From a virus (taxonomy: Duplodnaviria > Heunggongvirae > Uroviricota > Caudoviricetes), in IMG/VR virus record IMGVR_UViG_3300033066_001908: a DNA stretch of 64,000 bases; one strand, given 5' to 3'. The notes beneath the pieces were generated by a model. That model searched no databases and was not told the origin of the DNA. It saw only the letters and a program-made list of their open reading frames with translations. Shown here in pieces: positions 11,792 to 56,790 of this stretch (position 1 is the first letter of the stretch; each line of letters opens with the position of its first letter). Both the position numbers and the translations under genes were made by a program.

Positions 11792-11798
11792 GAACGCC

Positions 11799-12347: not shown

Positions 12348-12353
12348 ATCATT

Positions 12354-24908: not shown

Positions 24909-26552
24909 TCAATCCCAGCGATCGATCTTGTAATCGGACACCAGCCCGCGCGCGGTGACACGCACGAACAGGTTCCAGTTGTCACTGCTGCTGCACATGA
25001 TCAGCCCCGCAGCATGGTCTTCCTTGAGGCCTTCCAGGGTATTAGCTCGGGAATAGGACTCAATCACGCTTCGGACGCCGTGGAACTCGTTCCGCAGCAC
25101 TGTGGGGAAGAGACACAGACTCGGACTCCTGGTCTCTTTGGCACCCTTCAGGATGAAGATCGCACGACGGCCCTGGTGTGAGCAATCGTCTTCATTTCGC
25201 CAGGCATACGGACCCAGGCAGATCGCATCAACTTCGACGTAATCACCGCCCCGCAGGGACATCTGGTACGCCGGAGCCCCCGTGGGCCACAGATACCACG
25301 ACACCGGGTTACGGAACTCTTCCGTGTCCCACTGGATAATTGGCGGCGCGGCAGGATCCACAGCAGTCACCAAAGCCCCATAGCAGGAACTGCTGTGAGG
25401 CGCCAGCACTTCGATCTTATCAGCGTTCTCAAGTGCCGTTTGGCGGAACTTGACCCACGTGATCGTCTGTGCAGGCATCTTGATGTCCTGCGGAGTCTGT
25501 GGGGTCACGCGGGCGCCCTTCGGCTTAACATCACCAAACACACCCGTACCGGTCGCCTGGGGCGATTCCCGGCCAGGCCGGGGCACCCAGAGGGCCTGGA
25601 TGTCGGACAGTCGGGCAAACCGCCGCTTGAGCGAACCAGCGGCCCCCAGCTTCTCCACGACGTTTTCCGCCTGCTTGATCGTCCCGGCAGACGGCGCCAC
25701 CTGCGGACGCTGATACTGCAACGGGTGCATCTTCTCCGCAAACCGCTTCGCGATCGCGTTGAAATCCATCCCCGCAAGAATGTCTTCCAACAAGGTGCCG
25801 ATCATCGATGACCGCGGGTGACAGAAGCCGTCCGGAGCCAGCGCGATCGCGTACCAGACCACATTGGCCCTGTGTTTACCGTCCGCAGCTTCATACAGCC
25901 GTTTCAGTTCCAGCAGCCACGTCGCTTGGCCCAGCACCTTCTCACCACAATAGAGCGCGTCCGCTTCCAGGATCTTCACAGCCTGTTCGAGCTGTGGGAT
26001 CGAGAACTCTGACAACGCCAGCATCATGTTCTTGTGGTCTTCCTTCTTGGCCGCCGCGACCTGGAAGGGAGATAGGATTGCGTGTTTGTACATCCGACCA
26101 CCCGTTGCAGGGTACCGAATGGACAGGTGATGCCACGGACCAGTGACTGGCTCGCCGCAGACGTCCTTCTCGGGAACGAACACACCCGTCACCTTGGCCT
26201 TGCGGATTGCAGTGATCAGAGCCTGGACCGGAGCACAAAGTTCAGGCGGCGCGTCTTCCATGTCCCAAAGGACCGGAGAGGCGCATCCTTCATTGTCCAA
26301 AACAACCAAACCCGCAAACCGTTCAATGAACCGGCGGCAGGCATGACAGTTGTGATGTTGTCGTCGATCTTCCGGCAACCAGGACAGGTATTTGCCCCAG
26401 AGATCTTCGACATCAGTCGTGAACATCGGCAGCGTGGCTTGTTCCGTATTGGTCATGAATCGTCGCTGCACATTCGCGAGGTACATGTCGTACTCGCGAT
26501 CACTGCCCACTGCTGCTGCCGGTTGCGCTGGGACTGTTGCTCGTCTCGCCAT
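24909..26552 (-). CDS. Large conserved-looking hypothetical protein (~547 aa from MARRATVPAQ)
   Basis: Long clean ORF with a HHNCHACRRF Cys/His cluster near the N-terminus. No family recognised. Confidence 0.5.
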   Translation of the reverse strand: MARRATVPAQPAAAVGSDREYDMYLANVQRRFMTNTEQATLPMFTTDVEDLWGKYLSWLPEDRRQHHNCHACRRFIERFAGLVVLDNEGCASPVLWDMEDAPPELCAPVQALITAIRKAKVTGVFVPEKDVCGEPVTGPWHHLSIRYPATGGRMYKHAILSPFQVAAAKKEDHKNMMLALSEFSIPQLEQAVKILEADALYCGEKVLGQATWLLELKRLYEAADGKHRANVVWYAIALAPDGFCHPRSSMIGTLLEDILAGMDFNAIAKRFAEKMHPLQYQRPQVAPSAGTIKQAENVVEKLGAAGSLKRRFARLSDIQALWVPRPGRESPQATGTGVFGDVKPKGARVTPQTPQDIKMPAQTITWVKFRQTALENADKIEVLAPHSSSCYGALVTAVDPAAPPIIQWDTEEFRNPVSWYLWPTGAPAYQMSLRGGDYVEVDAICLGPYAWRNEDDCSHQGRRAIFILKGAKETRSPSLCLFPTVLRNEFHGVRSVIESYSRANTLEGLKEDHAAGLIMCSSSDNWNLFVRVTARGLVSDYKIDRWD

Positions 26553-26943
26553 TTTGTTCTTCCTTTTTGGTGTCGGCCGTCTCGGGCCAAGGGATACAAA
26601 CAGGTTCGTGGCGCGGATCTTTGCAGACCAAGCACACAAACACGCGTCCAGTTTGGACGAACTCATTGCCTTCTTCACTACCGATCCAGCTAGTATATCC
26701 GTTCAGTTTCCAACGGAAACCAACGATCCAGCCCTTAAACTGTGGGACGTCCTTCGGACGCCACTCATATTGATGCCGGTTATTCCGCCATCGAGTGCTT
26801 TCGTCTTCACCTTCACGCGGCACATACACACGCTCCATGATCTGCGTGCATTTTACCCACTTGCCCATCACAGCCCGCTGAGCTTCGACACTCAGCGGGG
26901 CTTTCATCTTCTTCCGAATCACGGGAGCCATCAGCAGGTCCAT
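26500..26943 (-). CDS. Hypothetical protein (147 aa)
   Basis: ORF with a CLVCKDPRHEPVC pair. Confidence 0.4.
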   Translation of the reverse strand: MDLLMAPVIRKKMKAPLSVEAQRAVMGKWVKCTQIMERVYVPREGEDESTRWRNNRHQYEWRPKDVPQFKGWIVGFRWKLNGYTSWIGSEEGNEFVQTGRVFVCLVCKDPRHEPVCIPWPETADTKKEEQNGETSNSPSATGSSSGQ

Positions 26944-31582: not shown

Positions 31583-32341
31583 TTACGTCGTTGCTTTAGG
31601 CAAGCTGGCTCGCCAGGCTTCGAAGATCGCGAGATTGGCTTCCATAAACGGCCGGAAGGCTGCCATCGCGGCCTTGGCTTCTTCAGCCGTAATCGTGAAC
31701 TTGCAATCGGGACAACACCAGCCTTCGTAGACAGCAGTGTCATAAACCGTGTCGGATGGATTCAATGCACCACACTTCGGACAGTTGCCATCATGCAGCG
31801 CCCGCACAACCCGATGCAACGCACGCGCCGTATCCGGAGCCAGCGACACGTCACTGTTAAGTGGCACAGGACCAATACCCAGCTCAGAAAAAATCTTCCC
31901 GTCTTCCTCGTCCATGATTTCCTGAATTGGATGCACGTGAGGTTTATGCGGAATCGCCGTGGACTCCAACAACTGCCGATACTTCTCGCCTGTTTCGGCC
32001 CTGAGCCACGGCATCAGTTGTGCGATCTTGTGTGACAGGCAAGTTGTGTTGACGCAGTCCGAAACATACTCGCGCCCACCTTCAGTTCGCACGATCGATC
32101 GCGCGGTACCACACAACAGACATGTCCCGGCCGGCGCCTGGTCAAACTTCGTTGCCAACGCCGAAAGCAACGTCCGATGTGCATCAAACTGCTCGCGAAG
32201 GGTGTCGTAATCCGGACAACGCATGTACTTGTTACACGCTCCATCGCCGTTGGCCCCCACATACCGCACCGGTTTCCCACAACCACAAACGTTGCCGGTC
32301 TGCGTAATGGCTGGCCCCGGTGCCTGAACTGCTTGATTCAT
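31583..32341 (-). CDS. Cys-rich hypothetical protein (252 aa)
   Basis: ORF with many CxxC pairs (CGCGK, CLLCG, CPKCG, CPDCK). Confidence 0.45.
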   Translation of the reverse strand: MNQAVQAPGPAITQTGNVCGCGKPVRYVGANGDGACNKYMRCPDYDTLREQFDAHRTLLSALATKFDQAPAGTCLLCGTARSIVRTEGGREYVSDCVNTTCLSHKIAQLMPWLRAETGEKYRQLLESTAIPHKPHVHPIQEIMDEEDGKIFSELGIGPVPLNSDVSLAPDTARALHRVVRALHDGNCPKCGALNPSDTVYDTAVYEGWCCPDCKFTITAEEAKAAMAAFRPFMEANLAIFEAWRASLPKATT

Positions 32342-32367: not shown

Positions 32368-33579
32368 ATGAACACAATCCTGCAAGCCTACGCACGCTAC
32401 TGCAACTTTCAACGTCCACCGGTCAACCCGATACGGGCCGTACAGGCTGAACGTTGGCTGGCCGGTGCGCTGCTGTTCGAGTTTCCGAACAGCATGGAGC
32501 AGTATACGAAACTGACACAGGACATGCTGAAGATCCGTGCCGAGGTCATTGGTAGCATAGACCCTGAGGGATTTCAACAATTCCGCACTTCAGGCACGAT
32601 GTCAGGGACACCGCGCACGTACCGCTTCGGCCCGAACGCGCAGCGTTGGATTGGTACAGTCTGGCAGCACTTCACCCGCGTGTTCAACCCGCGCACGATC
32701 GTTCGTCTGCGATTGAATGGCCTCAATGACAATGAGCTGACCTGTGAACGAAATAACGAAGGTCTGTACCAGTACGAAGCCCGCTGCGGAGTCTTGAACA
32801 AACAACGCACGGAAGCCTTAGTGATCATGCTGAGCGAAATGCTGATCGCACATCCACAGTTGACCTTGTACACGACACCAGACGCTTACCTGTACTTGAA
32901 TCAACATCTCGGCTTCAAATACTTCGCACTGCTGAACAAGGACAAAGTCAACTACCTGTCCGGACTGTGGGAGCCGTTCTTCAAACGTGACGAGCTTCGG
33001 GCAAACGGCGTTTGGTTTGGCAACATCATGATCGACTGGACAACAGGTGTGAACTTTTTCACCTGCTCTGCCAGCAAACAACACACACTTCCGATCTTCG
33101 CGTTGACCGACCAGGGGCCAACCAACCTGTTGAACCTGGCGCCAGATCAACCACAAAATGCCAGCGACAGGGAAACCTTCACCGCATTAAATGTCGTGAA
33201 GTGCGCATGCGGACAGTACCGCCTGGCCTTCAAGCATCTACCACATCCAGAAAGCGCGATGCGTCAGTTGGACGGCACGCCCGTCTACGATCCAGGCCTT
33301 GTGGAAAAACTTCGAGGACACTACCGGCACATGCAGTTCCGGCAATCCGGAAACGTAGTCACCATCGGGCATCTGACCGAAGATGGCTCGTTTCCGGACA
33401 AGGACATGCTGACCGATTACTTTCAAACACGCGGCTTCGAAGTCAACTACGAGATCTCCACCGCACCGTTTGTCTGCGGCAAGCGACCCGTCTTTCTCAA
33501 GACGACAGCTTCCGTTGAATCAGCTCCAGGTACCTTGGTGTTGCCGGACCAGTCAACAAGTCCCGTGGTTGTCCGATAG
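32368..33579 (+). CDS. Putative adenylate-forming enzyme-like protein (ANL/PaaK/GH3-like)
   Basis: Start taken at MNTILQAYAR. FRTSGTMSGTPRTY loosely resembles the (S/T)SGTTGxPK AMP-binding motif. Weak call. Confidence 0.3.
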   Translation: MNTILQAYARYCNFQRPPVNPIRAVQAERWLAGALLFEFPNSMEQYTKLTQDMLKIRAEVIGSIDPEGFQQFRTSGTMSGTPRTYRFGPNAQRWIGTVWQHFTRVFNPRTIVRLRLNGLNDNELTCERNNEGLYQYEARCGVLNKQRTEALVIMLSEMLIAHPQLTLYTTPDAYLYLNQHLGFKYFALLNKDKVNYLSGLWEPFFKRDELRANGVWFGNIMIDWTTGVNFFTCSASKQHTLPIFALTDQGPTNLLNLAPDQPQNASDRETFTALNVVKCACGQYRLAFKHLPHPESAMRQLDGTPVYDPGLVEKLRGHYRHMQFRQSGNVVTIGHLTEDGSFPDKDMLTDYFQTRGFEVNYEISTAPFVCGKRPVFLKTTASVESAPGTLVLPDQSTSPVVVR

Positions 33580-34507
33580 GCGCTGTTGAGAAGCCTCGCG
33601 ACAGAATGTCCAACTCCTTGTACAACGCGCGCGCCGAAGCCACATGGGTAATTGCCCGCCGTAGATCTGTATTCGGCTCAGCGATTGGTGTGATGTACTC
33701 AGAAAAACTAATTGCCGGCACACCTACCACAGCGGCCTCGTATAGGGCTAATGAATCACAACCAATCACGACAGAGCAGGTTGCCAGATCGTGGCCGATC
33801 TGCGCTGTACCCGATCGGACGTGTGCCCGGCGGCCTGCATCTGGCCTTGCGGCGATCTCCCGCAACCATGTCTCGATGTTAGATCGCAAGTCACGCGGAT
33901 GTTTGCGAATGGCCAGATGGGCACCCAAGTTTGTCTCCATGTATTTGAACAGCAGGTGCGCTACGCCGTAGGTCTGCTCAGTTGCCTGATCGGCCAGCAG
34001 CATCACGAACTCACCAGAGCCCTTGTACTTCCACCCGTCCATCCAGTCGAAGCAAGGCGAGCCGAGAATGTAAATGCGGTTGGCGTTCACTCCGAGTGTC
34101 TGCAGGACGTGCTCACCACGTGAAGAAGCCACGATGTAATCTTCCTCTGGCTCGTTTATCAGAAAACCTAACGTGGCCGGTTCCTTGAACTCGGTCATGA
34201 CCGGAATGTAGTTTAACCGCGGAATGTTGGACGCTTTGAAGGCCTGCAGGGTTGCCCTGGCATTTGGCCCGTCGACCGCGATCAAACCAAAATCAGGATG
34301 GAATTGTTCCAAGATCTGCAGCACACCACGTAACCAACCAGAGCCCGGCAGGATGTAATAAGTTCGGACCATGTCAGGATACGGTCGCGCGCAACCTTCG
34401 GGTACGAGTAGTCGAACGTCATGCCCGGCCCTCGACAATTGCTCGTAAAGCGGCAAAAATGTTTGCATCTCGCCGGGATAGAACCCGGTCATCAGGATTT
34501 TCGACAT
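33497..34507 (-). CDS. Putative GT-B fold glycosyltransferase-like protein
   Basis: N-terminal KILMTGFYPGEMQTFLPLYEQLSRAGHDVRLL and C-terminal DLATCSVVIGCDSLALYEAAVVGVPAISF resemble the GT-B N- and C-domain signatures (MurG/UDP-glycosyltransferase-like). Confidence 0.4.
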   Translation of the reverse strand: MSKILMTGFYPGEMQTFLPLYEQLSRAGHDVRLLVPEGCARPYPDMVRTYYILPGSGWLRGVLQILEQFHPDFGLIAVDGPNARATLQAFKASNIPRLNYIPVMTEFKEPATLGFLINEPEEDYIVASSRGEHVLQTLGVNANRIYILGSPCFDWMDGWKYKGSGEFVMLLADQATEQTYGVAHLLFKYMETNLGAHLAIRKHPRDLRSNIETWLREIAARPDAGRRAHVRSGTAQIGHDLATCSVVIGCDSLALYEAAVVGVPAISFSEYITPIAEPNTDLRRAITHVASARALYKELDILSRGFSTAPIGQPRDLLTGPATPRYLELIQRKLSS

Positions 34508-34528
34508 TCAAGACTCCAAGGGACTGAC

Positions 34529-35308
34529 ATGATTCCACACATCGCGCACTTCATTTGGTTGTACGAGGATCCGCCGGACTGGGTGAATCAAAACATTGCT
34601 CAGTTTAGGAAGCATCACCCGCACTGGACAACGGTCCTGTGGCGTAACACCCCGGCTGACTTTCCAGGCGACCTGCAAAACTTAATGCGCGAGTTGCCTT
34701 TCTTGTCCAGCAAGTCAGATATCCTGCGATACTGGCTTTTGGAAAAGTACGGCGGCATCTACTTCGACTGTGACAACTTTGTGCTCAAGAGCTTTGAACC
34801 GTTGTGCGAACACGCATTCTTCACGGCACCATACTACGAACGGTTCATTGCCTGCGGATTGATGGGCAGCGAACCACACTCGTATCCGGCACAAAAGATC
34901 GTCGCAATGTGCCGGTTGTTGGCTGGTGAAAATCCTGTCCAACGTGACAGGAAGACTTTCGGTCCCGACCTGCTGACCCCATTGTGTTACGGGCTGCGGG
35001 ATTGCACGCTGTTGCCGCAGCATTACTTCTACACGTTGCCAACCCGGCCCGACGCACAGACTTTCTGGCTTTCCAATCAGGCCGGCCGCGATATCATCAT
35101 GGACCGAATTAAAGACCGGTTTGTGGATGGTGTCACGCCGTACTCAGTTCACCTGTGGGGCGTCAACGAATCCAGCACACGTCGCGAAGAAAGCCTGCCC
35201 GATGATGCGCGTGATTGTATCGTTCAAAGATGCTTCCCCCTGGTTAGCACGATGTCTGGACAGCTTATTGACTCAGACGTACCAGTCCTGGACATGCCAC
35301 GTCGCTGA
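34529..35308 (+). CDS. GT32-family glycosyltransferase (Gly_transf_sug, DXD motif region)
   Basis: MIPHIAHFIW...SDILRYWLLEKYGGIYFDCD is the hallmark of the PF04488 sugar-binding region. There is an AAGGGA SD. The 3' end overlaps the next GT2 gene by 107 nt. Confidence 0.65.
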   Translation: MIPHIAHFIWLYEDPPDWVNQNIAQFRKHHPHWTTVLWRNTPADFPGDLQNLMRELPFLSSKSDILRYWLLEKYGGIYFDCDNFVLKSFEPLCEHAFFTAPYYERFIACGLMGSEPHSYPAQKIVAMCRLLAGENPVQRDRKTFGPDLLTPLCYGLRDCTLLPQHYFYTLPTRPDAQTFWLSNQAGRDIIMDRIKDRFVDGVTPYSVHLWGVNESSTRREESLPDDARDCIVQRCFPLVSTMSGQLIDSDVPVLDMPRR

Positions 35309-35924
35309 CGACTGCTCGACGGACAACTCGCTTGACATAATCTATGACACGATTAAACGTGATCGTCGATTTTATGTCAGTCAGAACTCGATGCGGCTCT
35401 TCCAGTTAGGGACGTACCAACGCCTTTTGACTGACACAACATGGCATAAGAATGACATTGTTGTGTCAGTCGACGGCGACGACTGGTTGCCGGATCCTGG
35501 CGTCCTGCAGCGTGTGGCTGACGCCTACGCCGATGGAAAGACCTGGATCACGTACGGAAGCCACAAACGCTCCAACGGCCGCAAACTCATCACAGAGCCC
35601 CTGGAAGACGCCACAAAGATCCGCCAGGAAGCCTGGAAGACTTCCCACCTGCGAACCTGGAAGGTCGGCCTGTGGCGTCGGATCCGCCCAGAATCGCTCC
35701 TGGGACCAGATGGTCAGACGTTCCGGTGTGCCGGCGACGTCGCCTGGATGTTCCCCATGATCGAAATGGCAGGGAACGAGCACTCGAAGCACCTGCCTGA
35801 GTGCAATTACGTGTACAACGTCGACAATCCCACCAGGTGCGGCAACACACGGCGGGAAGAACAGTTCGCCAACGCGCGATGGCTCCGTAAGCAGGAGCCA
35901 TACGCGCAGTTGGAAAAGCTCTAA
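35202..35924 (+). CDS. GT2-family glycosyltransferase
   Basis: MMRVIVSFKDASPWLARCLDSLLTQTYQSWTCHVADDCSTDNS and VSVDGDDWL (DxD) form a classic GT2 N-terminal signature. Confidence 0.65.
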   Translation: MMRVIVSFKDASPWLARCLDSLLTQTYQSWTCHVADDCSTDNSLDIIYDTIKRDRRFYVSQNSMRLFQLGTYQRLLTDTTWHKNDIVVSVDGDDWLPDPGVLQRVADAYADGKTWITYGSHKRSNGRKLITEPLEDATKIRQEAWKTSHLRTWKVGLWRRIRPESLLGPDGQTFRCAGDVAWMFPMIEMAGNEHSKHLPECNYVYNVDNPTRCGNTRREEQFANARWLRKQEPYAQLEKL

Positions 35925-36072
35925 TCGTGCGGTGGAATCAACTCCACTGTCTCGCCCGTCCACAGTGAATAAATCACCATGTAGGCAAGATACCCCAGCG
36001 GAATCGCATACACGGCACAGATCGCAACAGCAACCTGGCAACCAAAACCCGGGTATGGGTACTCTTTCTCGC

Positions 36073-36702
36073 TCATCGATAGTTGACTTTCATGTCCAGG
36101 AGCTTCGGCAGATGGAGGTTATTCGCCTTGACCTTGTCCGGAGCGAACTTCATCTGCCCGTCGCCAAACCGTTTATCGTACTTGTCCGTTTTGGACATCG
36201 GATCGCAGCCGATCATAACCAGCTTCTTAGCGCCCATCAGGTACGCCAGATGGATCGCAGTGGTTGCCGACCCGAAACCGGCTAACGATCGATTGAAAGC
36301 GCGGCACACAGATGGATCACGAAGCCAACTGTGGTTATTGAAGAAGTCCTCCGAAAGCACTTCATCGTCTGCCTGACAGTCGCACTCCATGTACGAACCG
36401 TATGGTTCAAACCTGGAGTGCATGTGTCCGTGGTAATCCGCACCTTCCTCAAACCGCATGGTTCTAATGAACACGGTCAACAAATCCGGCATGTCGAGGA
36501 ACTGACTGATGTGGTGCGTCACGAAGTATCGCTGCGTTGAGAGCATCGCGTACTTGGACACTTTCCAGGCCTGGTTGATAAAGAAAATTGGGCCGAAAAC
36601 CGAGCCCAACTGCAGGTAGTCAAACTTGGTTGGACCGCTGCCAACGATTACCGCTTCGTCAACATCAGTCGGGAGATCACGAAGATAATGTGTCCTGGGC
36701 AT
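36073..36702 (-). CDS. DUF115/MptE-like (Maf-like) putative glycosyl/nonulosonate transferase
   Basis: AVIVGSGPTKFDY and GSATTAIHLAYLMGAKKLVMIGCD match the DUF115 GSGPSL and C-terminal G.D signature. The ATG overlaps the upstream stop as TAATG. Confidence 0.4.
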   Translation of the reverse strand: MPRTHYLRDLPTDVDEAVIVGSGPTKFDYLQLGSVFGPIFFINQAWKVSKYAMLSTQRYFVTHHISQFLDMPDLLTVFIRTMRFEEGADYHGHMHSRFEPYGSYMECDCQADDEVLSEDFFNNHSWLRDPSVCRAFNRSLAGFGSATTAIHLAYLMGAKKLVMIGCDPMSKTDKYDKRFGDGQMKFAPDKVKANNLHLPKLLDMKVNYR

Positions 36703-37706
36703 TATGTTGTTGTCATCCTTTTGAGCATCCACTCAGGCGTGCAGCGTCGATCGTTCAACAACTGCTCGTATCGAATCGTCCACTCTGTTGGAATATCCAT
36801 AGGCAGCTGTGCCGGTACCCGCAGCATATGAAACACGCGAGCCACGCGGCGTACCGCCCGGTCGTAGAACTCGTCCGGAAAGTACATGTAGGCAATCCGC
36901 AGCTCGTTCATGGTCGAGCCTGGGTACTGCGGCCAGTCCGCCTGCATCAACGGCAACCTGGGGATAATGTCGGGCGCCCGGTTCGGTGCCGTGTAGTGCC
37001 AACAGTTTAGCTCGCTGAGCAGCTTCACACGGTGACCCATCGACCAGGCGTGACAACAAAACTCCGAATCCTGTGCAGATCCGAAACCCAGCAATCCCTG
37101 GTCAAAGCCACCAATGTCGTCGAAGACAGCCCGGCGGACCGACATGCCGCACGCAGACACGTACGGTAGCTCCCAAAGCCCCAGACCATTCAAACCTGAC
37201 CCAGGATAATCCCGGATTGCTTTTGTGGTACCTGGGGCGTCCTTGTCGAACATCCAGCCATAGCGGATGTCATCCACACCCGCACTGAACGCGTTGCAAG
37301 GCCGCTCGGTTGCCCGAGCCTGAAACATCTCATAGTTTGAGACCATTTGAGTCGTGCAGCCGAAGACCGCTTCTGAATCCTCCGCATAAGCCGCGCGCAG
37401 TACAGAGATCACATTTGGATCAAAGCAGGCATGTGCGTCAATGAAGATCAGGTACTCACCGCTGGACTGGGATACCCCGGCATTGGCCGCCCGTGCAGCA
37501 CCATGCCGTTCAAGCAACTGAATGTACCGCACGCCTGGGTTATGTTGCACCCAAGTCATGACCGGAATCTCAGAGTCGTCATCAACCACAATGACTTCGC
37601 CGTTGTAGTTACTTGCTAACCTGGCTAAATGGTTAAGGGTCGGCACCAGCGCCGGCCCTTCGTTTCTTGCTGTCACGATGATCGAGAACTCAGGTGTCCT
37701 GGCCAT
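36702..37706 (-). CDS. GT2-family glycosyltransferase (GT27/ppGalNAc-T-like catalytic domain)
   Basis: Start MARTPEFSIIVTARNEG with a GGAGGA SD. EVIVVDDDS and LIFIDAHA (DxH) are present. Confidence 0.65.
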   Translation of the reverse strand: MARTPEFSIIVTARNEGPALVPTLNHLARLASNYNGEVIVVDDDSEIPVMTWVQHNPGVRYIQLLERHGAARAANAGVSQSSGEYLIFIDAHACFDPNVISVLRAAYAEDSEAVFGCTTQMVSNYEMFQARATERPCNAFSAGVDDIRYGWMFDKDAPGTTKAIRDYPGSGLNGLGLWELPYVSACGMSVRRAVFDDIGGFDQGLLGFGSAQDSEFCCHAWSMGHRVKLLSELNCWHYTAPNRAPDIIPRLPLMQADWPQYPGSTMNELRIAYMYFPDEFYDRAVRRVARVFHMLRVPAQLPMDIPTEWTIRYEQLLNDRRCTPEWMLKRMTTT

Positions 37707-38394
37707 CCATTTCCTCCAAGCGTTCAATCGTCGCACGGAACACTTCGTCCGAGTCGTCCGATCGAACTTGATAACGCGGCAAGCAATGTGGATCGTAGAA
37801 GCGACGAACCGTACCAAGCTCAGTTGTCACCAGAGATTCATACCCAGCGTTCTCGACTTCATACCGAATGTCATTGTCGGTGTCTCCGTACGGTGGCGCG
37901 AAGTGCGCTGGCCATCTGCCGGTAGCCTTGTACAAATCCACCATACTGAAGTAGACCTGACGTTTCAAATCGCTGGTCGACTGCCTAAGCATGGAAGCGT
38001 GCCGCATGGCATGGCTTCCAATCTCATGGCCACGCACGGCCAGCTGTCGCACCTGGCTTTGCGGCATAAACTTTGAGTACCGCTCATTCTTCGGGATCTC
38101 GGGCAACCAGAGTCCTGGACACACATAGAAGATCGCAGGTGCTTTGAACTTCACCAGGATAGGCAGACCAAAATCCCAGGCGCCGGCCCGTTGATCGTCA
38201 AAGGACAATACCACGAGCTTCTTGATATGAATCGCAGCAACAGCCTGCTGACAGCGCAACAGTCCCGTCGTCATCGAAACAAACTCATATCCTCGATCTT
38301 TCAGAAAACCCAGATGCCCTTCAAAGCGATCGGGGTGCAGTGTCCAGGCGTTACGTTGGCTCGGATCGAGGTCGTGGTAGCCAAGGATGATCAT
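37690..38394 (-). CDS. Polysaccharide deacetylase (CE4/NodB family)
   Basis: VVLSFDDQRAGAW (motif 1) and GHEIGSHAMRH (motif 2). Confidence 0.6.
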   Translation of the reverse strand: MIILGYHDLDPSQRNAWTLHPDRFEGHLGFLKDRGYEFVSMTTGLLRCQQAVAAIHIKKLVVLSFDDQRAGAWDFGLPILVKFKAPAIFYVCPGLWLPEIPKNERYSKFMPQSQVRQLAVRGHEIGSHAMRHASMLRQSTSDLKRQVYFSMVDLYKATGRWPAHFAPPYGDTDNDIRYEVENAGYESLVTTELGTVRRFYDPHCLPRYQVRSDDSDEVFRATIERLEEMDGQDT

Positions 38395-46395: not shown

Positions 46396-46565
46396 GCAAA
46401 TAGAAATGCCACCACAAAAGGAAAACAGCCGCGGCGTCTACCGACACGCTGCAGCTGTTCAAACATAACCCGCTCACGCTCCATCTTCATGAGTGTAGCG
46501 GCTGTGCCAGGACAGGCCGCCCGGTGTGGGCGGCCGTAGCACCAGATGTATTCGCGTTGATCCAT
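46359..46565 (-). CDS. Small protein with C-terminal TM helix (68 aa)
   Basis: The ATG overlaps the SPFH gene stop (TAATG). C-terminal FPFVVAFLFACLGFLCWLF. Confidence 0.35.
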   Translation of the reverse strand: MDQREYIWCYGRPHRAACPGTAATLMKMERERVMFEQLQRVGRRRGCFPFVVAFLFACLGFLCWLFCR

Positions 46566-47464
46566 TACTTCTTTTCGTCCAGGTCATTCATGTTAATGAG
46601 CGGGACGGAGTTCCCAGTGAACTTCGGCAAAGCCCCATTCCACTTCTGAGTCATCAGGTAGTGAGTCAATGCCGGCGTCACTGATTCTGCCAGGATCTTA
46701 TTGCCCTGTGCCTTCAGCTCGATCTGTTTCAATTCCGCTTCAGCTTCGATGATCACGTTACGGGCGCGCCCTTTGGCATTCTCGGTTTCCTGATCGGCCT
46801 CGGCTTTCGACTGGGCCACCTTGTTCTGCGCCTGGATCGCAAGCTGTTGAGCCGTAATGGTCGCGTCGATACTGGCCTGAATCTTTTGCTCAGGTCTTGG
46901 TGCCGAGGCGAACGACAGCATGTGGATCACGATACCGTATTCCGCCATCTGTTTATTCAGCTCAGCTTTGGCCTTGTCGAGCATATCGCTCTTGCCTTCA
47001 CCAAGAATGGCCATCGTGTCCATCTTTTCGGCTTCACGTGCCAGCGCCTCCCGCACATGGTTACGCAACCATTGGTGGGAAATGTTGTCGATGTCACGCC
47101 GCAACTTATCGAACAGCACCGGCACCTTCTCGTCCTGGATCTCATACGTCAGCCCCACATCGACATTGATCTGCGCCCCCTTCGAGCTGGAGATCATGAT
47201 GGACTCGTCGACCGGGTTGCCCTTCGCGTCCTTGCTTTCCTTGCCCCAGAGCACGTTCTGCTCGAAGACAGGAAATTCGTGAATCGATTCGAACAGTGGA
47301 TTGTACCAGGCTCGGCCAACACCAATTGGCTTCGGATCGATGCCCTTGTGCTTACCGCTGGCATTCACACGCACACCGACATTACCTGAATCGATCCACT
47401 GGTAAGTACAACCGGTGAACAGCAGGCAAACCGTCGCAACAATCAACAGAGGGATACGCTTCAC
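46565..47464 (-). CDS. SPFH/Band-7 (prohibitin/HflK-like) domain lipoprotein
   Basis: Start taken at GTG 47464 (GGAGAG SD, overlaps the upstream stop as GTGA). Lipobox LLFTGC. The SPFH-type core runs from GNVGVRVNASG to the long Ala/Gln/Lys-rich coiled coil AQQLAIQAQNKVAQSKAEADQETENAKGRARNVIIEAEAELKQIELKAQGNKI. Confidence 0.65.
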   Translation of the reverse strand: MKRIPLLIVATVCLLFTGCTYQWIDSGNVGVRVNASGKHKGIDPKPIGVGRAWYNPLFESIHEFPVFEQNVLWGKESKDAKGNPVDESIMISSSKGAQINVDVGLTYEIQDEKVPVLFDKLRRDIDNISHQWLRNHVREALAREAEKMDTMAILGEGKSDMLDKAKAELNKQMAEYGIVIHMLSFASAPRPEQKIQASIDATITAQQLAIQAQNKVAQSKAEADQETENAKGRARNVIIEAEAELKQIELKAQGNKILAESVTPALTHYLMTQKWNGALPKFTGNSVPLINMNDLDEKK

Positions 47465-47658
47465 TTGACTCTCCAAATCCAACGAAACACGTGATAGCCG
47501 CAGACCACAAGGACTACGACTCCGACACAACCGAACCTGAACTCGACGTCCGAGTCAGAATTCAAAAGCTCAACCATCGTCGACCAGACAATCATGAAAA
47601 GGACTGCCGCAATCGCCGACTCAACAATCCGAACCGAAATTGGATACTTGTTCTTCAC
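47461..47658 (-). CDS. Small membrane protein upstream of SPFH gene (possible NfeD-like partner)
   Basis: 65 aa with two hydrophobic segments (AIAAVLFMIVWSTMV; CVGVVVLVVCGYHVF). It is translationally coupled on both sides (ATGA/GTGA). Confidence 0.4.
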   Translation of the reverse strand: MKNKYPISVRIVESAIAAVLFMIVWSTMVELLNSDSDVEFRFGCVGVVVLVVCGYHVFRWIWRVK

Positions 47659-51047: not shown

Positions 51048-51776
51048 TTATTTGCCTGACTCTTTATCGGGCCAGAGGGTTACGGAAAAGTAGGGATTGG
51101 GTTGTGCCGGTTGACCCATCACAGGCGCCCTGGGCCGCGGTTCACCATGCAGGCACCCGCAAGCCATTCCTAACTGCCACAACACACACGGAAGACTGAT
51201 CTGGTCCCGAACACTCCACTGCAGGATGTATTCGCGCCAGAGCGAGTTCAACGCTGCCATCTGTGGCGTATGCTGACGAATCACACAAGCCGTCCCGTAC
51301 AAACCATTCTGATCGGCGTAACCCAGGCTCTTAAAGAACGCGAGCATACCATTGATCAGGTCTGGATCATCCAACTTCTGATCAATGCACGCCTGCGCTT
51401 CCTCAGCAACCGTTCGACGCCGAGGGTGCCTGAAACAAGTGATGTCGTGATAGTTCGTAAAGTTCACCAGCTCGTAGAAGTCCACGATCGGAGTGTGGGT
51501 CGCATCGAACCAGATCGACCGAGTCGCTTCCGGAAACAGGATCTCCGGACTCAGCTTGATCAATCGTGCCGCGCGTCGAGGCGTTGACGCAATATCCTCC
51601 CAGTTGATGCGCGACACATGCCGCCAGCATGATGGGTACGGACCTTCTCGATCCGTGACCAATACGGTCTTGATGTGGTGCTGTGGGATGTCCCAGCTCT
51701 GGATCGGCTCACTGCCGCCGAAGTTCGCTGAGTAGGCCACAGTACCCGCCCCGCCAATCAAACCAGTTAAGCCCAT
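51048..51776 (-). CDS. Putative DUF616-like (TOD1/MUCI70-like) glycosyltransferase
   Basis: Start taken at MGLTGLI (ATG 51776). VAYSANFGGSEP...IKTVLVTD, RRAARLIKLSPEILFPEATRSIWFDATH and FRHPRRRTVAEEA resemble the DUF616 YaaIfGnYD / RrnaKipKllpHrlFP..rySiWiD / h.eR..eE blocks. Confidence 0.4.
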   Translation of the reverse strand: MGLTGLIGGAGTVAYSANFGGSEPIQSWDIPQHHIKTVLVTDREGPYPSCWRHVSRINWEDIASTPRRAARLIKLSPEILFPEATRSIWFDATHTPIVDFYELVNFTNYHDITCFRHPRRRTVAEEAQACIDQKLDDPDLINGMLAFFKSLGYADQNGLYGTACVIRQHTPQMAALNSLWREYILQWSVRDQISLPCVLWQLGMACGCLHGEPRPRAPVMGQPAQPNPYFSVTLWPDKESGK

Positions 51777-53179
51777 TGTCGCGTCCAATCCGTGTGTTGA
51801 TGTTTCACATGCTTCCAGACGCGACTCGCCGTCCGGATCTCCAAGGCCTTCTTCGCGAAGAACCGATCCACTGCTGCCACAACACCGAAGCGACTGTCCG
51901 GATGTTGCACAACGTAGTCATGGCCGAACAGCAAGCCACCTTCTCGCACCTTCGGGTACCAGGCCTGTAAGTCCGCTGTCACTTCAGCATCCAGATGACC
52001 GGCATCCAGGAACACGGCCGCGAAGTATCCATCAGGAAACAACGAAGCCGCCTGCACAGAGGTCATCCGGATTGGGAAGATCCTGCCAGGCAGATCCGAC
52101 ATGTTCTGCAGGAACTTCTGGTAGAGCTTGTCTGGGCCGCCCGCATCCGCCAACGCGGTCCCCAACGAGCTGCCACCGAACCAGGTGTCGATGCAGAACA
52201 GTGGATTAGTCTTCCCGCGCAGCTTCAACTCCGTCGCCAGATAATGGGCCGAAGCGCCCAACCAACAGCCCACCTCGGCGATTGGCTCTCCGTCTGGAAC
52301 ATCTGCTGCAGCACCCGAGTACGGCCCCTGGAAGTCGAAGAACCCGGGAATCGTCTTCCACTTGGTGTTGAACGGCGTGAAGGCATTCGAGGGACGTGGC
52401 TCACAGAGCTTCGTAATCATGGCCTGCAGGGCCTCTTGCCGCAGCTGATTGCGCAGCTCGCCATTCGTTTCCGTCTCTTCCATCGCTGGGTCACAGCTCA
52501 GATGTTGGACCACACCGGCATTCTCACATCGCCCAGGCGTCGTGATCTCTGCGTGGTTGCCACGCTCCATCGAGTACCCGAGTTGGGCACACAGCTTGAG
52601 CTTCTCACCGGCGCCGAAGGGCAGTGTCGGATCGAACCGCAGCTTAGAGTCCTTGTGAAAGGCCAACATGGGCTCATTCGGGACACCGACTGGTTGAATC
52701 GCACCGTCGCCCAGCACGATTGCCCGCACGCTGGGAATCCCCAGCTCTGTGAACTTCGTTTGCTTCGCGACAGCCACAAACTTCTGGTAGTTCTCCGAAT
52801 CGAACAGGCAATCACCATCCAGGACGATCGTCCAGTCGTAACCGCGAGCCTGCCCATCCTCGATCGCCCAGTTGCGCACAGCGTTGATATTGATCGCTGC
52901 GCAAACCTGCTCAGGAAACGTCTTCGCGTTCCGCACAGCGTTCAAATCAACCGGAATCACAACATAATGGGCAGCAAACCGATCCAGCTCCTGTTGGATC
53001 TTACGCCGCACGGAGTGTTCAACGATGCGGTTCAGAATCCAGTGCTCCGTTGGTGTCGCCACCTCAGGCGGATCCTGATCAAAAATCCGGCTGATCGTAC
53101 GCAGCCTGGCATCCGGCAAGTCGCGCGGCGGCAATTCAGAACCGACAATGCGATAGATCCCGATTTTCGGGTCAGCCAT
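51767..53179 (-). CDS. Two-domain protein: N-terminal glycosyltransferase-like domain fused to a C-terminal Methyltransf_24 SAM methyltransferase
   Basis: The N-terminal half has GYDWTIVLDGDCLFD (DxD-like). The C-terminal half has IAEVGCWLGASAHYLA (motif I) and AVFLDAGHLDAEVTADLQAWYPKVREGGLLFGHDY (FxDGxH...GG...HDY). Confidence 0.55.
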   Translation of the reverse strand: MADPKIGIYRIVGSELPPRDLPDARLRTISRIFDQDPPEVATPTEHWILNRIVEHSVRRKIQQELDRFAAHYVVIPVDLNAVRNAKTFPEQVCAAININAVRNWAIEDGQARGYDWTIVLDGDCLFDSENYQKFVAVAKQTKFTELGIPSVRAIVLGDGAIQPVGVPNEPMLAFHKDSKLRFDPTLPFGAGEKLKLCAQLGYSMERGNHAEITTPGRCENAGVVQHLSCDPAMEETETNGELRNQLRQEALQAMITKLCEPRPSNAFTPFNTKWKTIPGFFDFQGPYSGAAADVPDGEPIAEVGCWLGASAHYLATELKLRGKTNPLFCIDTWFGGSSLGTALADAGGPDKLYQKFLQNMSDLPGRIFPIRMTSVQAASLFPDGYFAAVFLDAGHLDAEVTADLQAWYPKVREGGLLFGHDYVVQHPDSRFGVVAAVDRFFAKKALEIRTASRVWKHVKHQHTDWTRQWA

Positions 53180-53190
53180 GTTGCTTCTTT

Positions 53191-54084: not shown

Positions 54085-54094
54085 CGCGAACTCG

Positions 54095-56717: not shown

Positions 56718-56743
56718 GGTTTTCTCCAGGGTGGAAATGACAA

Positions 56744-56763
56744 GAGCCCGGTTGCCCGGGCTC
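56744..56763 (-). terminator. GC-rich hairpin terminator (GAGCCCGG-TTGC-CCGGGCTC)
   Basis: Perfect 8-bp stem, and the minus strand downstream is TTGTCATTTCC. It sits between the stop of 56790..57287 and the next start. Confidence 0.5.
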
Positions 56764-56769
56764 CTGAAT

Positions 56770-56790
56770 CTTATTAGGAACAATAAACTC
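56770..56790. promoter_or_regulatory. Conserved AT-rich palindromic 20-mer, copy C (CTTATTAGGAACAATAAACTC)
   Basis: It abuts the TAG stop of 56790..57287 and is followed by the terminator hairpin. Same arrangement as copy A. Confidence 0.35.

What the first reader, a model, noticed from the sequence alone, without database searches (positions are those of the whole stretch)
32368..38394. Second carbohydrate-enzyme cluster: adenylate-forming-like enzyme, GT-B, GT32, GT2, DUF115/Maf-like, ppGalNAc-T-like GT2 and CE4 deacetylase on alternating strands
Seven consecutive genes have glycan-related motifs: GT32 HFIW...SDILRYWLLEKYGGIYFDCD; GT2 ADDCSTDNS/DGDD; GT2 with the DxH motif IFIDAH; DUF115 GSGP...MIGCD; CE4 SFDD/HEIGSH. 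The DUF115/Maf family transfers nonulosonic acids (pseudaminic/legionaminic acid) onto flagellins in bacteria. Its presence next to an adenylate-forming-like enzyme hints at activation and transfer of an unusual acidic sugar.
Basis: partly seen in the sequence, partly recalled or inferred. Interest (0 to 1): 0.6.

Follow-up and report, generated by a model that had tools for sequence, protein, structure and literature searches.

The report
Phage sugar-chain-building gene island
An uncultured, roughly 84-kb phage (probably of Planctomycetes) carries a compact island of eight genes for soluble sugar-chain-building enzymes; it is made of two conserved modules and includes two protein families no database names, but what it decorates is still unknown.

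Summary
The genes and motifs are real and at the stated coordinates. Pfam confirms GT32 (g3), two GT2 enzymes (g4, g6) and a CE4 deacetylase (g7). PDB sequence matches show g6 is closest to polypeptide GalNAc-transferases.

- **DUF115/Maf call (g5).** It is weak but reproducible. Seven of eight family members hit PF01973 below threshold. Two CstII-like motifs lie in the same order as in CstII. In two planctomycete genomes the homolog abuts a KdsB-like CMP-Kdo synthetase.
- **GT-B call (g2).** Unverified.

Synteny splits the island into two modules. CE4–GT2–g5 is also found in Planctomycetaceae chromosomes. ANL–GT32–GT2 is found in related phages. The proposed link between the ANL enzyme and acidic-sugar transfer is therefore not supported, and the window has no nonulosonic-acid or flagellin genes.

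All seven enzymes are predicted to be soluble, and no lipid-carrier or export genes were found. My best guess (about 0.4) is cytoplasmic glycosylation of a protein, probably a virion protein.

A side finding: most g1 relatives sit beside a radical SAM enzyme and a Cys-rich peptide, a RiPP-like trio.

The parts
32368..33579 (+). g1: 403-aa adenylate-forming (ANL) enzyme of PaaK-like fold, from a family no database names. It has invariant C233/H239/C279/C281 (putative Zn site), D267 and K372. Its 3' end overlaps g2 convergently by 83 nt.
   Evidence: - No Pfam, NCBIfam, PHROG or PDB sequence hit.
- 196 cluster representatives found.
- AF2 model: pLDDT 92.3, pTM 0.90.
- Foldseek top 34 hits are all ANL enzymes; BT_0428, ClxA and PaaK1 score E about 1e-7.
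- Residue conservation.
33497..34507 (-). g2: 336-aa soluble protein of unassigned family. There is a weak hint of a GT-B N-terminal domain. It is an optional member of the island.
   Evidence: - The only hit is Glyco_trans_4_4, E 0.029.
- No relatives in viral or metagenome contigs, phages or plasmids.
- A 341-aa gene sits at the same position in the P0005 contig.
- Absent from L013, L018 and L019.
34526..35308 (+). g3: GT32-type glycosyltransferase with a DxD motif (FDCD).
   Evidence: - PF04488, 6e-12, 46.5 bits.
- Orthologs in L013 (47%) and L019 (46%).
- Weak PDB similarities are to protein-glycosylating toxin GT domains and Och1.
35202..35924 (+). g4: small soluble GT2 glycosyltransferase (DGDD motif). 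It overlaps the g3 3' end by about 105 nt. Public gene calls of 177 and 218 aa look N-terminally truncated.
   Evidence: - PF00535, 5e-14.
- Orthologs align from residue 1-2: L013 59%, L018 63%, L001 50%.
- Best PDB match is GalT1 (5hea), 4.4e-6.
35921..36076 (-). orf51: 51-aa single-pass hydrophobic mini-protein. Its ATG overlaps the g5 stop codon (ATGA). It is the last gene of the g7-g6-g5 operon.
   Evidence: - Called in public assemblies.
- Sequence read directly.
- Hydropathy maximum 2.07.
- Weak BcsF-like hit, E 0.017.
36073..36702 (-). g5: 209-aa MptE-like/CstII-like (sialyltransferase-like) putative transferase that uses a CMP-activated ulosonic acid.
   Evidence: - PF01973, 3e-4, below cut-off.
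- 7 of 8 family members hit PF01973 and essentially nothing else.
- phrog_4603 sialyltransferase, 0.0067.
- hhalign against CstII 1ro7: E 0.0017 on the C-terminal motif.
- HMMER aligns the N-terminal GxGP...N motif; 16 of 2000 shuffles score as well.
- A KdsB-like gene is adjacent in L007 and L015.
36702..37706 (-). g6: soluble GT2 with a DxH motif (IFIDAH). Its closest solved relatives are polypeptide GalNAc-transferase catalytic domains. It has no lectin domain.
   Evidence: - PF00535, 9e-22.
- PDB 2d7i, 3.2e-7, over residues 27-265.
- Orthologs in L013 45%, L014 33%, L015 32%, L007 32%.
37690..38394 (-). g7: CE4 carbohydrate de-N-acetylase with no signal peptide. It is the first gene of the g7-g6-g5-orf51 operon and overlaps g6 by 17 nt.
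   Evidence: - PF01522, 1.2e-20.
- NCBIfam: PgaB, HfsH and NodB-type hits.
- PDB: CE4 deacetylases.
- Orthologs in L013 41%, L014 38%, L015 and L007 33%.
- No hydrophobic N-terminus.

Best explanation
The region is a glycan-assembly island in the roughly 84-kb genome of an uncultured phage whose host is probably a planctomycete. It is built from two modules that are inherited separately.

Module A is the operon g7-g6-g5-orf51. My inferred sequence of steps is:
- A ppGalNAc-T-like GT2 (g6) adds a HexNAc.
- A cytoplasmic CE4 enzyme (g7) removes its N-acetyl group.
- A sialyltransferase-like enzyme (g5) adds a CMP-activated ulosonic acid, most likely Kdo-type and supplied by the host.

Module B is g1, g3 and g4, with g2 as an optional extra.
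- GT32 and a small GT2 add further sugars.
- A PaaK-fold adenylate-forming ligase (g1) activates a carboxylate with ATP and joins it to the growing structure or to its acceptor.

All seven enzymes are predicted soluble, and there is no priming phosphoglycosyl transferase, flippase, polymerase or exporter. I therefore infer that assembly happens in the cytoplasm on a non-lipid acceptor, most likely a protein such as a virion component. This would resemble virion glycosylation in mycobacteriophages and giant viruses.

What is shown: gene content, the folds or families of g1, g3, g4, g6 and g7, the module structure, and predicted solubility.

What is inferred: the donor sugars, the order of steps, the substrate of g1, and the acceptor.
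For: - **Families and folds.**
- **Module A synteny.** It recurs in L007, L013, L014, L015 and the P0005 contig.
- **Module B synteny.** It recurs in L001, L013, L018 and L019.
- **Operon structure.** Start and stop codons overlap for g7/g6, g6/g5 and g5/orf51.
- **Donor clue for g5.** A KdsB-like gene (153 bits to CMP-Kdo synthetase models) converges on the g5 homolog in two planctomycete loci.
- **Solubility.** None of g1-g7 has a transmembrane segment or signal peptide.
- **No export machinery.** No Wzx, Wzy, ABC-transporter or phosphoglycosyl-transferase family appears in the Pfam hits precomputed for the called genes across about 73 kb of the contig.
- **Protein-acceptor hints.** The closest solved relatives act on proteins: ppGalNAc-Ts for g6, the Fap1-pathway GalT1 for g4, and toxin GT domains, weakly, for g3.
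- **g1 relatives.** Distant g1 relatives sit in peptide-modifying (RiPP-like) trios.
- **Phage context.** A phrog_1735 protein with homologs in 533 phage records, two independent assemblies of about 84 kb, and many small same-strand ORFs.
- **Known roles of phage GTs.** The three known roles, including virion glycosylation, are summarised in PMC12619734.
Against: - No acceptor was identified, and no Ser/Thr-rich protein stands out.
- No recognisable capsid, tail or portal gene was found by Pfam or PHROG in the parts of the contig examined, so a link to virion proteins is untested.
- Module A also lives in bacterial chromosomes, where a polysaccharide role is equally possible.
- The best NCBIfam hits for g7 and g6 include the polysaccharide pairs PgaB/PgaC and HfsH/HfsG.
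- The assignment of g5 is sub-threshold, and no structure could be predicted for it.
- The substrate of g1 is unknown.
- The similarities to protein-directed GTs are generic GT-A similarities.
Confidence: 0.4

Rival explanations
1. Host-surface remodelling. The island acts on host lipid-linked or nascent polysaccharide intermediates (LPS core or O-antigen, capsule, or a holdfast-type polymer) at the cytoplasmic face. This would alter the cell surface during infection or lysogeny, for example to exclude superinfecting phages. Export would rely on host priming enzymes and transporters.
For: - Module A occurs in Planctomycetaceae chromosomes next to a KdsB-like gene and other GTs such as TOD1_MUCI70.
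- g7 and g6 hit the cytoplasmic holdfast pair HfsH (7.9e-9) and HfsG (3.3e-6), and PgaB/PgaC.
- g6 hits the PHROG family 'GtrB-like O-antigen conversion'.
- orf51 provides a membrane anchor.
- Serotype conversion is a known role of phage GTs.
Against: - There is no integrase or lysogeny gene among the Pfam hits.
- There is no GtrA-type flippase and no membrane GT.
- The phage carries more than 15 glycan genes, far more than known seroconversion cassettes.
- All NCBIfam matches are far below the equivalog cut-offs.
Confidence: 0.27
2. DNA hypermodification. The glycosyltransferases build a glycan on hydroxymethylated bases of the phage DNA to evade restriction, and g1 and g7 tailor that glycan.
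For: - Soluble phage GT-A enzymes glycosylating 5hmC DNA are documented (bioRxiv 10.1101/2023.12.21.572611).
- In the related phages L018 and L019 a C5 DNA methylase lies directly upstream of the g1 homolog.
- The window also carries a PhyH-like dioxygenase and several methyltransferases elsewhere.
Against: - No 5mYOX/TET, thymidylate-synthase-like hydroxymethylase or C5-MT appears among the window's precomputed Pfam hits.
- The methylase of L018 has no counterpart in the window.
- Module A is chromosomal in planctomycetes beside KdsB.
- Seven or more tailoring enzymes exceed any DNA glycan described in that paper.
Confidence: 0.08
3. This is a flagellin- or pilin-type nonulosonic-acid glycosylation island in which the adenylate-forming enzyme activates an unusual acidic sugar that the Maf-like enzyme then transfers.
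For: - g1 has an ANL fold.
- g5 is weakly MptE-like.
- A NeuB fragment lies about 7 kb from the g5 homolog in L007.
Against: - g1 and g5 are in different modules and occur without each other.
- No flagellin, pilin or NeuB/PseI/LegI gene and no CMP-sugar synthetase is found in the window.
- The adjacent cytidylyltransferase in relatives is KdsB-like; its PseF score is only 33 bits.
- From general knowledge, ulosonic acids are activated as CMP-sugars by cytidylyltransferases, not by ANL enzymes.
Confidence: 0.05

Closest known systems
PaaK-type ANL adenylate-forming enzymes (PaaK1, BT_0428, HCL, NatL2, ClxA; McbA as a free-standing amide synthetase)
   Same: - Same two-domain fold and a similar size of about 400 aa.
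- A Ser/Thr/Gly-rich loop sits at the P-loop position.
- There is an invariant Asp (D267) and an invariant C-terminal Gly-Lys (K372).
   Different: - Only 11-14% identity, with no Pfam, NCBIfam or PDB profile match.
- hhalign against E. coli PaaK gives 0.5% probability.
- The P-loop is degenerate in g1 (TSGTMSGTPRT).
- Four invariant residues, C233, H239, C279 and C281, suggest a Zn site that I do not know from PaaK enzymes.
- The genomic partners are glycosyltransferases or radical SAM enzymes, not phenylacetate catabolism genes.
GT42 sialyltransferase CstII and the DUF115/Maf (MptE-like, PF01973) group
   Same: - g5 has an N-terminal hydrophobic strand followed by G-x-G-P-[ST], then an Asn about 22 residues later.
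- It also has a C-terminal G-S-x-T...G-x-D motif.
- Order and spacing match CstII.
- A CMP-ulosonate synthetase gene is adjacent in bacterial relatives.
   Different: - Scores are below every curated threshold.
- g5 is much shorter (209 aa) than Maf proteins.
- There is no flagellin context.
- The context points to Kdo-type rather than sialic or pseudaminic acid.
- The fold was not modelled.
Polypeptide GalNAc-transferases (GT27)
   Same: g6 aligns over the whole GT-A catalytic domain, including the DxH motif and the Gal/GalNAc-T-like motif region. Homologs carry a Glyco_transf_7C signal.
   Different: g6 has no ricin-type lectin domain and no membrane anchor, E-values are only about 1e-7, and the acceptor is unknown.
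Virus-encoded glycosylation of virion proteins (mycobacteriophage capsid and tail-tube glycosylation; chlorovirus and mimivirus glycan machinery)
   Same: The virus carries its own soluble GTs, without lipid-carrier or export genes, and in unusually large numbers. This role is cited in PMC12619734.
   Different: Glycosylated virion proteins are not demonstrated here. The enzyme set (CE4, sialyltransferase-like, ANL) differs from the two-to-four-GT cassettes I recall for mycobacteriophages.
GT2 plus CE4 pairs in polysaccharide or oligosaccharide synthesis (HfsG/HfsH of the Caulobacter holdfast, PgaC/PgaB, NodC/NodB)
   Same: An adjacent, co-transcribed GT2 and CE4. g7 lacks a signal peptide, like the cytoplasmic HfsH and NodB.
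   Different: g6 is a short soluble enzyme, not a membrane synthase. All scores are far below the equivalog cut-offs. An extra conserved sialyltransferase-like partner is present.

Membership tests
ANL adenylate-forming superfamily (g1) | Two-domain ANL fold: a large N-terminal domain plus a C-terminal domain of about 100 aa | tested here: met
ANL adenylate-forming superfamily (g1) | P-loop (A3) motif [ST][ST]G[ST][ST]GxPK | tested here: inconclusive
   g1 reads TSGTMSGTPRT. The family consensus is [ST][NS]G[ST][TS]xG. A few members are canonical, for example TSGSTGRPK. hhalign places the motif on the PaaK P-loop, but at 0.5% probability.
ANL adenylate-forming superfamily (g1) | Invariant catalytic Lys (A10) in the C-terminal domain, and a ribose-binding Asp (A7) | tested here: met
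   K372 is invariant in 120 of 120 sequences and preceded by Gly. D267 is conserved in 119 of 120. Equivalence to A10 and A7 is inferred from position, not from a residue-level superposition.
ANL adenylate-forming superfamily (g1) | Match to curated sequence models (Pfam AMP-binding, NCBIfam PaaK) | tested here: not met
   No hit for g1 or for any of 120 relatives. No PDB hit with either the sequence or the profile.
ANL adenylate-forming superfamily (g1) | ATP-dependent acyl-adenylate formation | not testable with these tools
   Requires an enzyme assay.
DUF115 / Maf / MptE-like, PF01973 (g5) | Pfam score above the gathering threshold | tested here: not met
   21 bits against 34.6, matching residues 149-177 only. 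Seven of eight relatives hit it, the best at E 4.9e-4.
DUF115 / Maf / MptE-like, PF01973 (g5) | Genomic association with flagellin or pilin genes and with nonulosonic acid (Pse/Leg/Neu) synthesis genes | tested here: not met
   None in the window or in the phage relatives. Bacterial relatives have a KdsB-like gene and only a NeuB fragment.
GT42 sialyltransferase, CstII-like (g5) | Sequence relationship covering both CMP-sugar-binding motifs | tested here: inconclusive
   hhalign E 0.0017, probability 15.7%, on the C-terminal motif. HMMER gives 4.0 bits on the N-terminal motif, and 16 of 2000 shuffles do as well. The CstII sequence used was verified against 1ro7.
GT42 sialyltransferase, CstII-like (g5) | Sialyltransferase-type fold and a catalytic base | not tested
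GT-B glycosyltransferases (g2) | Twin-Rossmann GT-B fold or a profile match | tested here: inconclusive
   Only Glyco_trans_4_4, E 0.029, 15 bits against 29.7, residues 17-72. No PDB hit. No homologs retrieved.
GT32 (g3) | Gly_transf_sug domain with a DxD motif | tested here: met
   PF04488, 46.5 bits against a cut-off of 23. FDCD is present.
GT2 (g4, g6) | Glycos_transf_2 domain with a DxD or DxH motif | tested here: met
   PF00535 at 52.9 and 78.2 bits against a cut-off of 23.3. DGDD and IFIDAH are present.
GT27 polypeptide GalNAc-transferase (g6) | Catalytic domain plus a C-terminal ricin-type lectin domain and a type II membrane anchor | tested here: not met
   Only the catalytic domain aligns. 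g6 is 334 aa with no further domain and no transmembrane segment. It works like the catalytic domain but is not filed as GT27.
CE4 carbohydrate esterase / de-N-acetylase (g7) | Polysacc_deac_1 domain with the Asp-Asp and His-x3-His metal motifs | tested here: met
   PF01522, 74.2 bits against 23.1. SFDD and HAMRH are present. The Arg of the usual RxPY motif is replaced (FAPPYG).
Wzx/Wzy- or ABC-dependent surface polysaccharide locus | Priming phosphoglycosyl transferase, flippase or ABC transporter, and polymerase | tested here: not met
   None among the Pfam hits precomputed for the called genes across about 73 kb of the contig. g1-g7 have no transmembrane segment.
Phage DNA glycan hypermodification cluster | GT adjacent to a 5mYOX/TET plus C5-MT pair, or to a thymidylate-synthase-like hydroxymethylase | tested here: not met
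   No such family is recorded in the window. A C5-MT lies next to the g1 homolog only in L018 and L019 and has no counterpart in the window.

The most novel reading that the evidence does not exclude
The island would be part of a virus-encoded, largely self-sufficient protein-glycosylation system in a phage of Planctomycetes. It would build an acidic, partly de-N-acetylated O-glycan on virion proteins.

Its ligase g1 would be a new Zn-binding branch of the ANL superfamily. That branch's ancestral job would be tailoring Cys-rich ribosomal peptides together with a radical SAM enzyme. In this phage lineage it would have been re-deployed, with D219 changed to N and the radical SAM partner and peptide lost, to modify a glycoprotein.
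Probability: 0.15. Interest if true: 0.75.

Novelty: new variant of a known kind. Interest (0 to 1): 0.5.

Why it matters
Phages are known to use glycosyltransferases in three ways: on their DNA, on the host surface, and on their own virions. The known cassettes are small. This phage devotes more than 15 genes in about 70 kb to glycan chemistry.

The island studied here combines enzyme types not previously described together in a phage: a ppGalNAc-T-like GT, a cytoplasmic CE4, a sialyltransferase-like enzyme and a PaaK-fold ligase. One module is shared with planctomycete chromosomes, which points to a host and to gene flow between host and phage.

Two components are families that no database recognises:
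- g1: at least 196 sequence clusters, all from metagenomes.
- g5: a small family.

Assigning a fold to g1 gives a concrete, testable biochemical hypothesis, namely ATP-dependent activation of a carboxylate. The link between g1's relatives and radical SAM enzymes plus Cys-rich peptides also flags a possible undescribed class of RiPP-like gene clusters.

Tried and rejected
- **Sequence-only identification of g1.** Pfam, PHROGs, NCBIfam, PDB phmmer, a 120-sequence profile against PDB, Pfam on all 120 relatives, and hhalign against E. coli PaaK all gave nothing usable.
- **First g1 structure model.** AlphaFold with a 3-sequence alignment gave pLDDT 45 and was discarded.
- **Deeper word-indexed homolog search.** Searching with the 120-sequence alignment returned only 4 proteins.
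- **afdb50 fold library.** It was unavailable. The viral fold library gave only two weak ANL-like hits.
- **g2.** No relatives in IMG/VR or JGI metagenome contigs. No tblastn hit in GenBank phages or PLSDB plasmids at E<=1.
- **g5.** No phage or plasmid hit. No hit from the family profile against PDB. hhalign in global mode misbehaved.
- **CE4-to-ANL hypothesis.** I considered that CE4 (g7) frees an amine which g1 then re-acylates, in the manner of NodB/NodA. I rejected this as the primary model because g1 occurs without any CE4, GT27-like or g5 gene in L001, L018 and L019.
- **Radical SAM partner or Cys-rich precursor for g1 in the window or its close relatives.** None found.
- **Ser/Thr-rich candidate acceptor protein in the window.** None found.
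- **Promoter and terminator scans.** Counts were at chance level.
- **Large upstream ORFs as structural proteins.** The 557-aa and 627-aa ORFs have no phage homolog.
- **Literature searches.** DUF115 with phage, CapK with PaaK and polysaccharide, and RiPP with radical SAM and PaaK all returned nothing.

Full report
**Observation**

The window is 52-57% GC with mostly minus-strand genes.

| Gene | Coordinates | Strand |
|---|---|---|
| g1 | 32368-33579 | + |
| g2 | 33497-34507 | - |
| g3 | 34526-35308 | + |
| g4 | 35202-35924 | + |
| g5 | 36073-36702 | - |
| g6 | 36702-37706 | - |
| g7 | 37690-38394 | - |

- An eighth gene was overlooked. It is a 51-aa hydrophobic ORF at 35921-36076 (-), and its ATG overlaps the g5 stop.
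- g7/g6 overlap by 17 nt, and g6/g5 share their junction base, so g7-g6-g5-orf51 reads as one translationally coupled operon.
- g1 and g2 converge and overlap by 83 nt.
- g4 overlaps the end of g3 by about 105 nt. Its orthologs align from residue 1-2, so the shorter public calls for g4 (177 and 218 aa) look truncated.
- All quoted motifs are present.

**Context**

The source contig is about 84 kb in two independent assemblies (83,870 and 83,989 bp). The evidence that it is a phage is as follows.

- It carries a phrog_1735/DUF8224 protein at 24909-26678 with homologs in 533 phage records.
- It carries an SPFH protein of phrog_200, a Lar-type protein, an AcrVA2-like protein and 2H-SAK.
- It has no tRNA and no DNA similarity to GenBank phages.
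- No canonical structural gene was recognised by Pfam or PHROGs. "Phage" is therefore well supported but not proven.

The contig is unusually rich in glycan genes. These include:

- a 1319-aa GT4/GT4/GT2 protein cut by the window start;
- a GH130-like gene with methyltransferases at about 10.8-14.6 kb;
- the island studied here;
- a third group at about 51-56.8 kb (TOD1_MUCI70, Methyltransf_24, PhyH-like, a second CE4);
- a sulfotransferase at about 58.6-59.3 kb.

**Labels that hold by sequence**

- g3 is GT32 (PF04488, 46.5 bits).
- g4 and g6 are GT2 (PF00535, 52.9 and 78.2 bits).
- g7 is CE4 (PF01522, 74.2 bits).
- The closest solved relatives of g6 are polypeptide GalNAc-transferases. The match to 2d7i has E 3.2e-7 over residues 27-265 and includes the DxH motif. 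Only the catalytic domain aligns; there is no lectin domain.
- The best solved relative of g4 is GalT1 of a serine-rich-adhesin glycosylation pathway (5hea, 4.4e-6).
- The weak PDB similarities of g3 are nearly all to protein-glycosylating toxin GT domains and Och1 (E 0.016-0.5, individually not significant).
- g7 matches CE4 de-N-acetylases.

**g1, the adenylate-forming call**

Every sequence-profile method failed. The word-indexed search found only three proteins. The exhaustive HMMER search with that alignment found 196 cluster representatives of about 350-400 aa.

- A 120-sequence alignment has five invariant residues: C233, H239, C279, C281 and K372. D267 is nearly invariant, and the loop [ST][NS]G[ST][TS]xG is conserved.
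- A few members carry a canonical ANL P-loop such as TSGSTGRPK.
- None of the 120 members hits any relevant Pfam family, and the profile hits nothing in the PDB.
- hhalign against E. coli PaaK lands on the P-loop, but with 0.5% probability.
- AlphaFold with three sequences was useless (pLDDT 45). With the 120-sequence alignment it gave pLDDT 92.3 and pTM 0.90.
- Foldseek against the PDB returned 34 hits with E<=0.001, all ANL enzymes. They were led by BT_0428, ClxA, PaaK1 and NatL2, with E about 1e-7 and TM about 0.5.

g1 is a distant PaaK-type ANL enzyme from a family that no database names. All members looked up are metagenomic and unnamed. The four invariant Cys/His residues suggest a structural Zn site, but I could not check the geometry.

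**g5, the DUF115/Maf call**

- The Pfam hit is sub-threshold: 21 bits against a cut-off of 34.6, covering only the C-terminal motif.
- It is nonetheless specific. Seven of the eight family members hit PF01973 and essentially nothing else.
- PHROGs gives a sialyltransferase family at E 0.0067.
- I compared the family with CstII, after verifying that the sequence I used is identical to 1ro7 chain A.
  - hhalign aligns GSATTAIH..G.K..v.IGCD with TSGVYMCAVAIALGYKEIYLSGID (E 0.0017, probability 15.7%).
  - HMMER independently aligns the N-terminal block, v-i-v-G-S-G-P-T ... f-f-I-N against VIIAGNGPS ... FRCN (4.0 bits; 16 of 2000 shuffles do as well).
- The two blocks lie in the same order in both proteins with closely similar spacing (coordinates). 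This is suggestive, not conclusive.

Genomic context adds weight. In a Planctomycetaceae MAG (L015, a 352-kb contig) and in a syntenic contig (L007), the g5 homolog is flanked by a convergent cytidylyltransferase. That gene scores 153 bits (L007) and 90 bits (the truncated L015 ORF) against CMP-Kdo synthetase models, and only 33-34 bits against PseF. I read g5 as a probable transferase of a CMP-activated ulosonic acid, Kdo-type rather than pseudaminic or legionaminic, with about 0.7 confidence.

**g2**

The only signal is Glyco_trans_4_4 at E 0.029. No relatives were found in four collections. A 341-aa gene occupies the same slot in the P0005 contig, but g2 is absent from L013, L018 and L019. 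It is a real gene of unassigned family.

**Module structure**

| Module | Genes | Where it recurs |
|---|---|---|
| A | g7-g6-g5 | P0005 contig, same order, g5 62% identical |
| A | g7-g6-g5 | L013 (41, 45, 53%) |
| A | g7-g6-g5 | L014 (38, 33, 42%) |
| A | g7-g6-g5 | Planctomycete loci L007 and L015 (about 33, 32, 41-43%) |
| B | g1 with g4 | L001 (36%, 50%) |
| B | g1 with g3 and g4 | L013 |
| B | g1 with a g4 ortholog | L018 (45%, 63%) |
| B | g1 with g3 and g4 orthologs | L019 |

- L001, L018 and L019 lack module A within reach. L007, L014 and L015 lack g1.
- L013 and L018 are related phages: they share the HD-domain and Lar-HTH genes that flank the island.
- The island is thus a conserved but shuffled pair of cassettes in one phage lineage.
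- Module A is shared with Planctomycetaceae, and so is TOD1_MUCI70. This is my basis for the host guess.

**Mechanism**

None of g1-g7 has a transmembrane segment or signal peptide; only orf51 is hydrophobic. No priming phosphoglycosyl transferase, flippase, polymerase or transporter family is recorded across about 73 kb of the contig. So the chemistry is cytoplasmic and the acceptor is either a soluble macromolecule or a host intermediate.

I favour a protein acceptor, probably a virion component (0.4), for three reasons:
- the closest relatives of g6, g4 and, weakly, g3 act on proteins;
- the gene investment resembles virus-encoded virion glycosylation;
- distant g1 relatives belong to peptide-modifying clusters (see below).

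The steps I propose are inferred, not shown:
- g6 adds a HexNAc.
- g7 de-N-acetylates it.
- g5 adds a Kdo-type ulosonic acid from a host CMP-sugar.
- g3 and g4 extend the glycan.
- g1 ligates a carboxylate.

The rivals are:
- remodelling of host surface polysaccharide on host lipid carriers (0.27; HfsH/HfsG- and PgaB/PgaC-type hits, and chromosomal copies of module A);
- glycan hypermodification of DNA (0.08; for the paradigm and for a C5 methylase beside the g1 homolog in L018/L019, but no hydroxymethylating enzyme found here);

**Side finding**

In all 11 loci of more distant g1 relatives (21-24% identity over full alignment; 23-31% in local alignments) that have enough flank, the ANL-like gene is adjacent to an orthologous radical SAM gene. 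These loci are L012, L020, L021, L024, L025, L027, L029, L030, L032, L034 and L037.

- In nine of them there is a 63-92-aa ORF with a leader-like F(M/F)TE(E/Q)E motif and a Cys-rich C-terminus. L012 has two tandem copies.
- This looks like a RiPP-type trio of precursor, radical SAM and ligase.
- I found no paper combining RiPP, radical SAM and PaaK.
- The window's clade (g1, L001, L018, P0012, P0014, P0016; 34-45% identical) is distinct. It has G-N instead of N/R-D at positions 218-219.
- That clade has no radical SAM gene and no such peptide, and in every member whose neighbourhood could be examined (window, L001, L013, L018, L019) it sits with glycosyltransferases instead.

**Verdict**

The ANL call is right at fold level, the DUF115 call is plausible but unproven, and the GT-B call is unverified. 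The functional narrative of acidic-sugar activation is not supported. The island is a new variant of a known kind, a virus-encoded glycan-assembly cassette. Two of its components are unannotated families, and its target is unknown.

Noticed in passing
L012 4000-6963; L020 6660-9062; L021, L024, L025, L027, L029, L030, L032, L034, L037 (for example L024 4998-7494): In 11 of 11 loci with enough flank, distant relatives of g1 lie next to an orthologous radical SAM gene. In 9 of them there is also a 63-92-aa ORF with a leader-like F(M/F)TE(E/Q)E motif and a Cys-rich C-terminus. This is a RiPP-like trio that I could not find described. The window's own clade lacks both partners.
   Followed up: partly
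window 1-882 (-), continuing beyond the window start: This is the 5' part of a 1319-aa gene with two GT4-type domains and one GT2-type domain, cut by the window edge.
   Followed up: no
window 10796-14620 (+): The first carbohydrate group on the plus strand: a GH130-like protein (PF04041, 2.5e-9), two methyltransferases, a GIY-YIG/NUMOD3 homing-endonuclease-like gene and a 353-aa unknown.
   Followed up: no
window about 51048-56783 (-) and 58577-59296 (-): A third glycan group: a TOD1_MUCI70-type GT, a 470-aa Methyltransf_24 protein (PHROG 'DNA methyltransferase'), a 297-aa unknown, a PhyH-like dioxygenase and a second CE4. Further on lie a sulfotransferase (PF09037) and another Methyltransf_24. 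The sulfotransferase has a 31%-identical copy inside the island of the related phage L013.
   Followed up: partly
L007 10001-11384 and L015 10001-11407: In two planctomycete loci the g5 homolog converges on, and in L007 overlaps, a divergent KdsB-like cytidylyltransferase. That gene scores 153 bits, below the subfamily cut-off of 193. It may activate a Kdo-like sugar distinct from the housekeeping one.
   Followed up: partly
L018 1838-3565 and L019 23-1750: In related phages a 575-aa C5 DNA methylase sits directly upstream of, and divergent from, the g1 homolog. In the window the same slot holds a 200-aa Gly/Tyr-rich protein, an HD-domain protein and a 252-aa Cys-rich protein.
   Followed up: partly
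window 31583-32341 (-): A 252-aa protein with several CxxC-type pairs lies 26 bp upstream of g1 and divergent from it. It has no family assignment.
   Followed up: no
window 24909-26678 (-): A large DUF8224/phrog_1735 protein of unknown function. It has 33-42%-identical homologs in 533 phage records from very different hosts, including Rhizobium, Brevibacillus, Vibrio, Pseudomonas and Salmonella.
   Followed up: no
window 62813-63967 (-) and 46565-47530 (-): An AcrVA2-like protein (PF26125, from precomputed hits) and an SPFH/Band 7 protein of phrog_200.
   Followed up: no
window 35202-35308 and 33497-33579: There are two unusual gene overlaps. g4 starts about 105 nt inside g3 in another frame, and public gene calls truncate it. 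g1 and g2 converge with an 83-nt overlap. The non-conserved, low-confidence tail of g1 (residues 389-403) lies within this overlap.
   Followed up: partly
L001 9654-14261: In another phage-like contig the g1 and g4 orthologs are flanked by a SprT-like HExxH protein, HAD_SAK_1 and a PolyA_pol/CCA-type nucleotidyltransferase. These are RNA-repair-type genes. The window's contig also has 2H-SAK outside the window.
   Followed up: no
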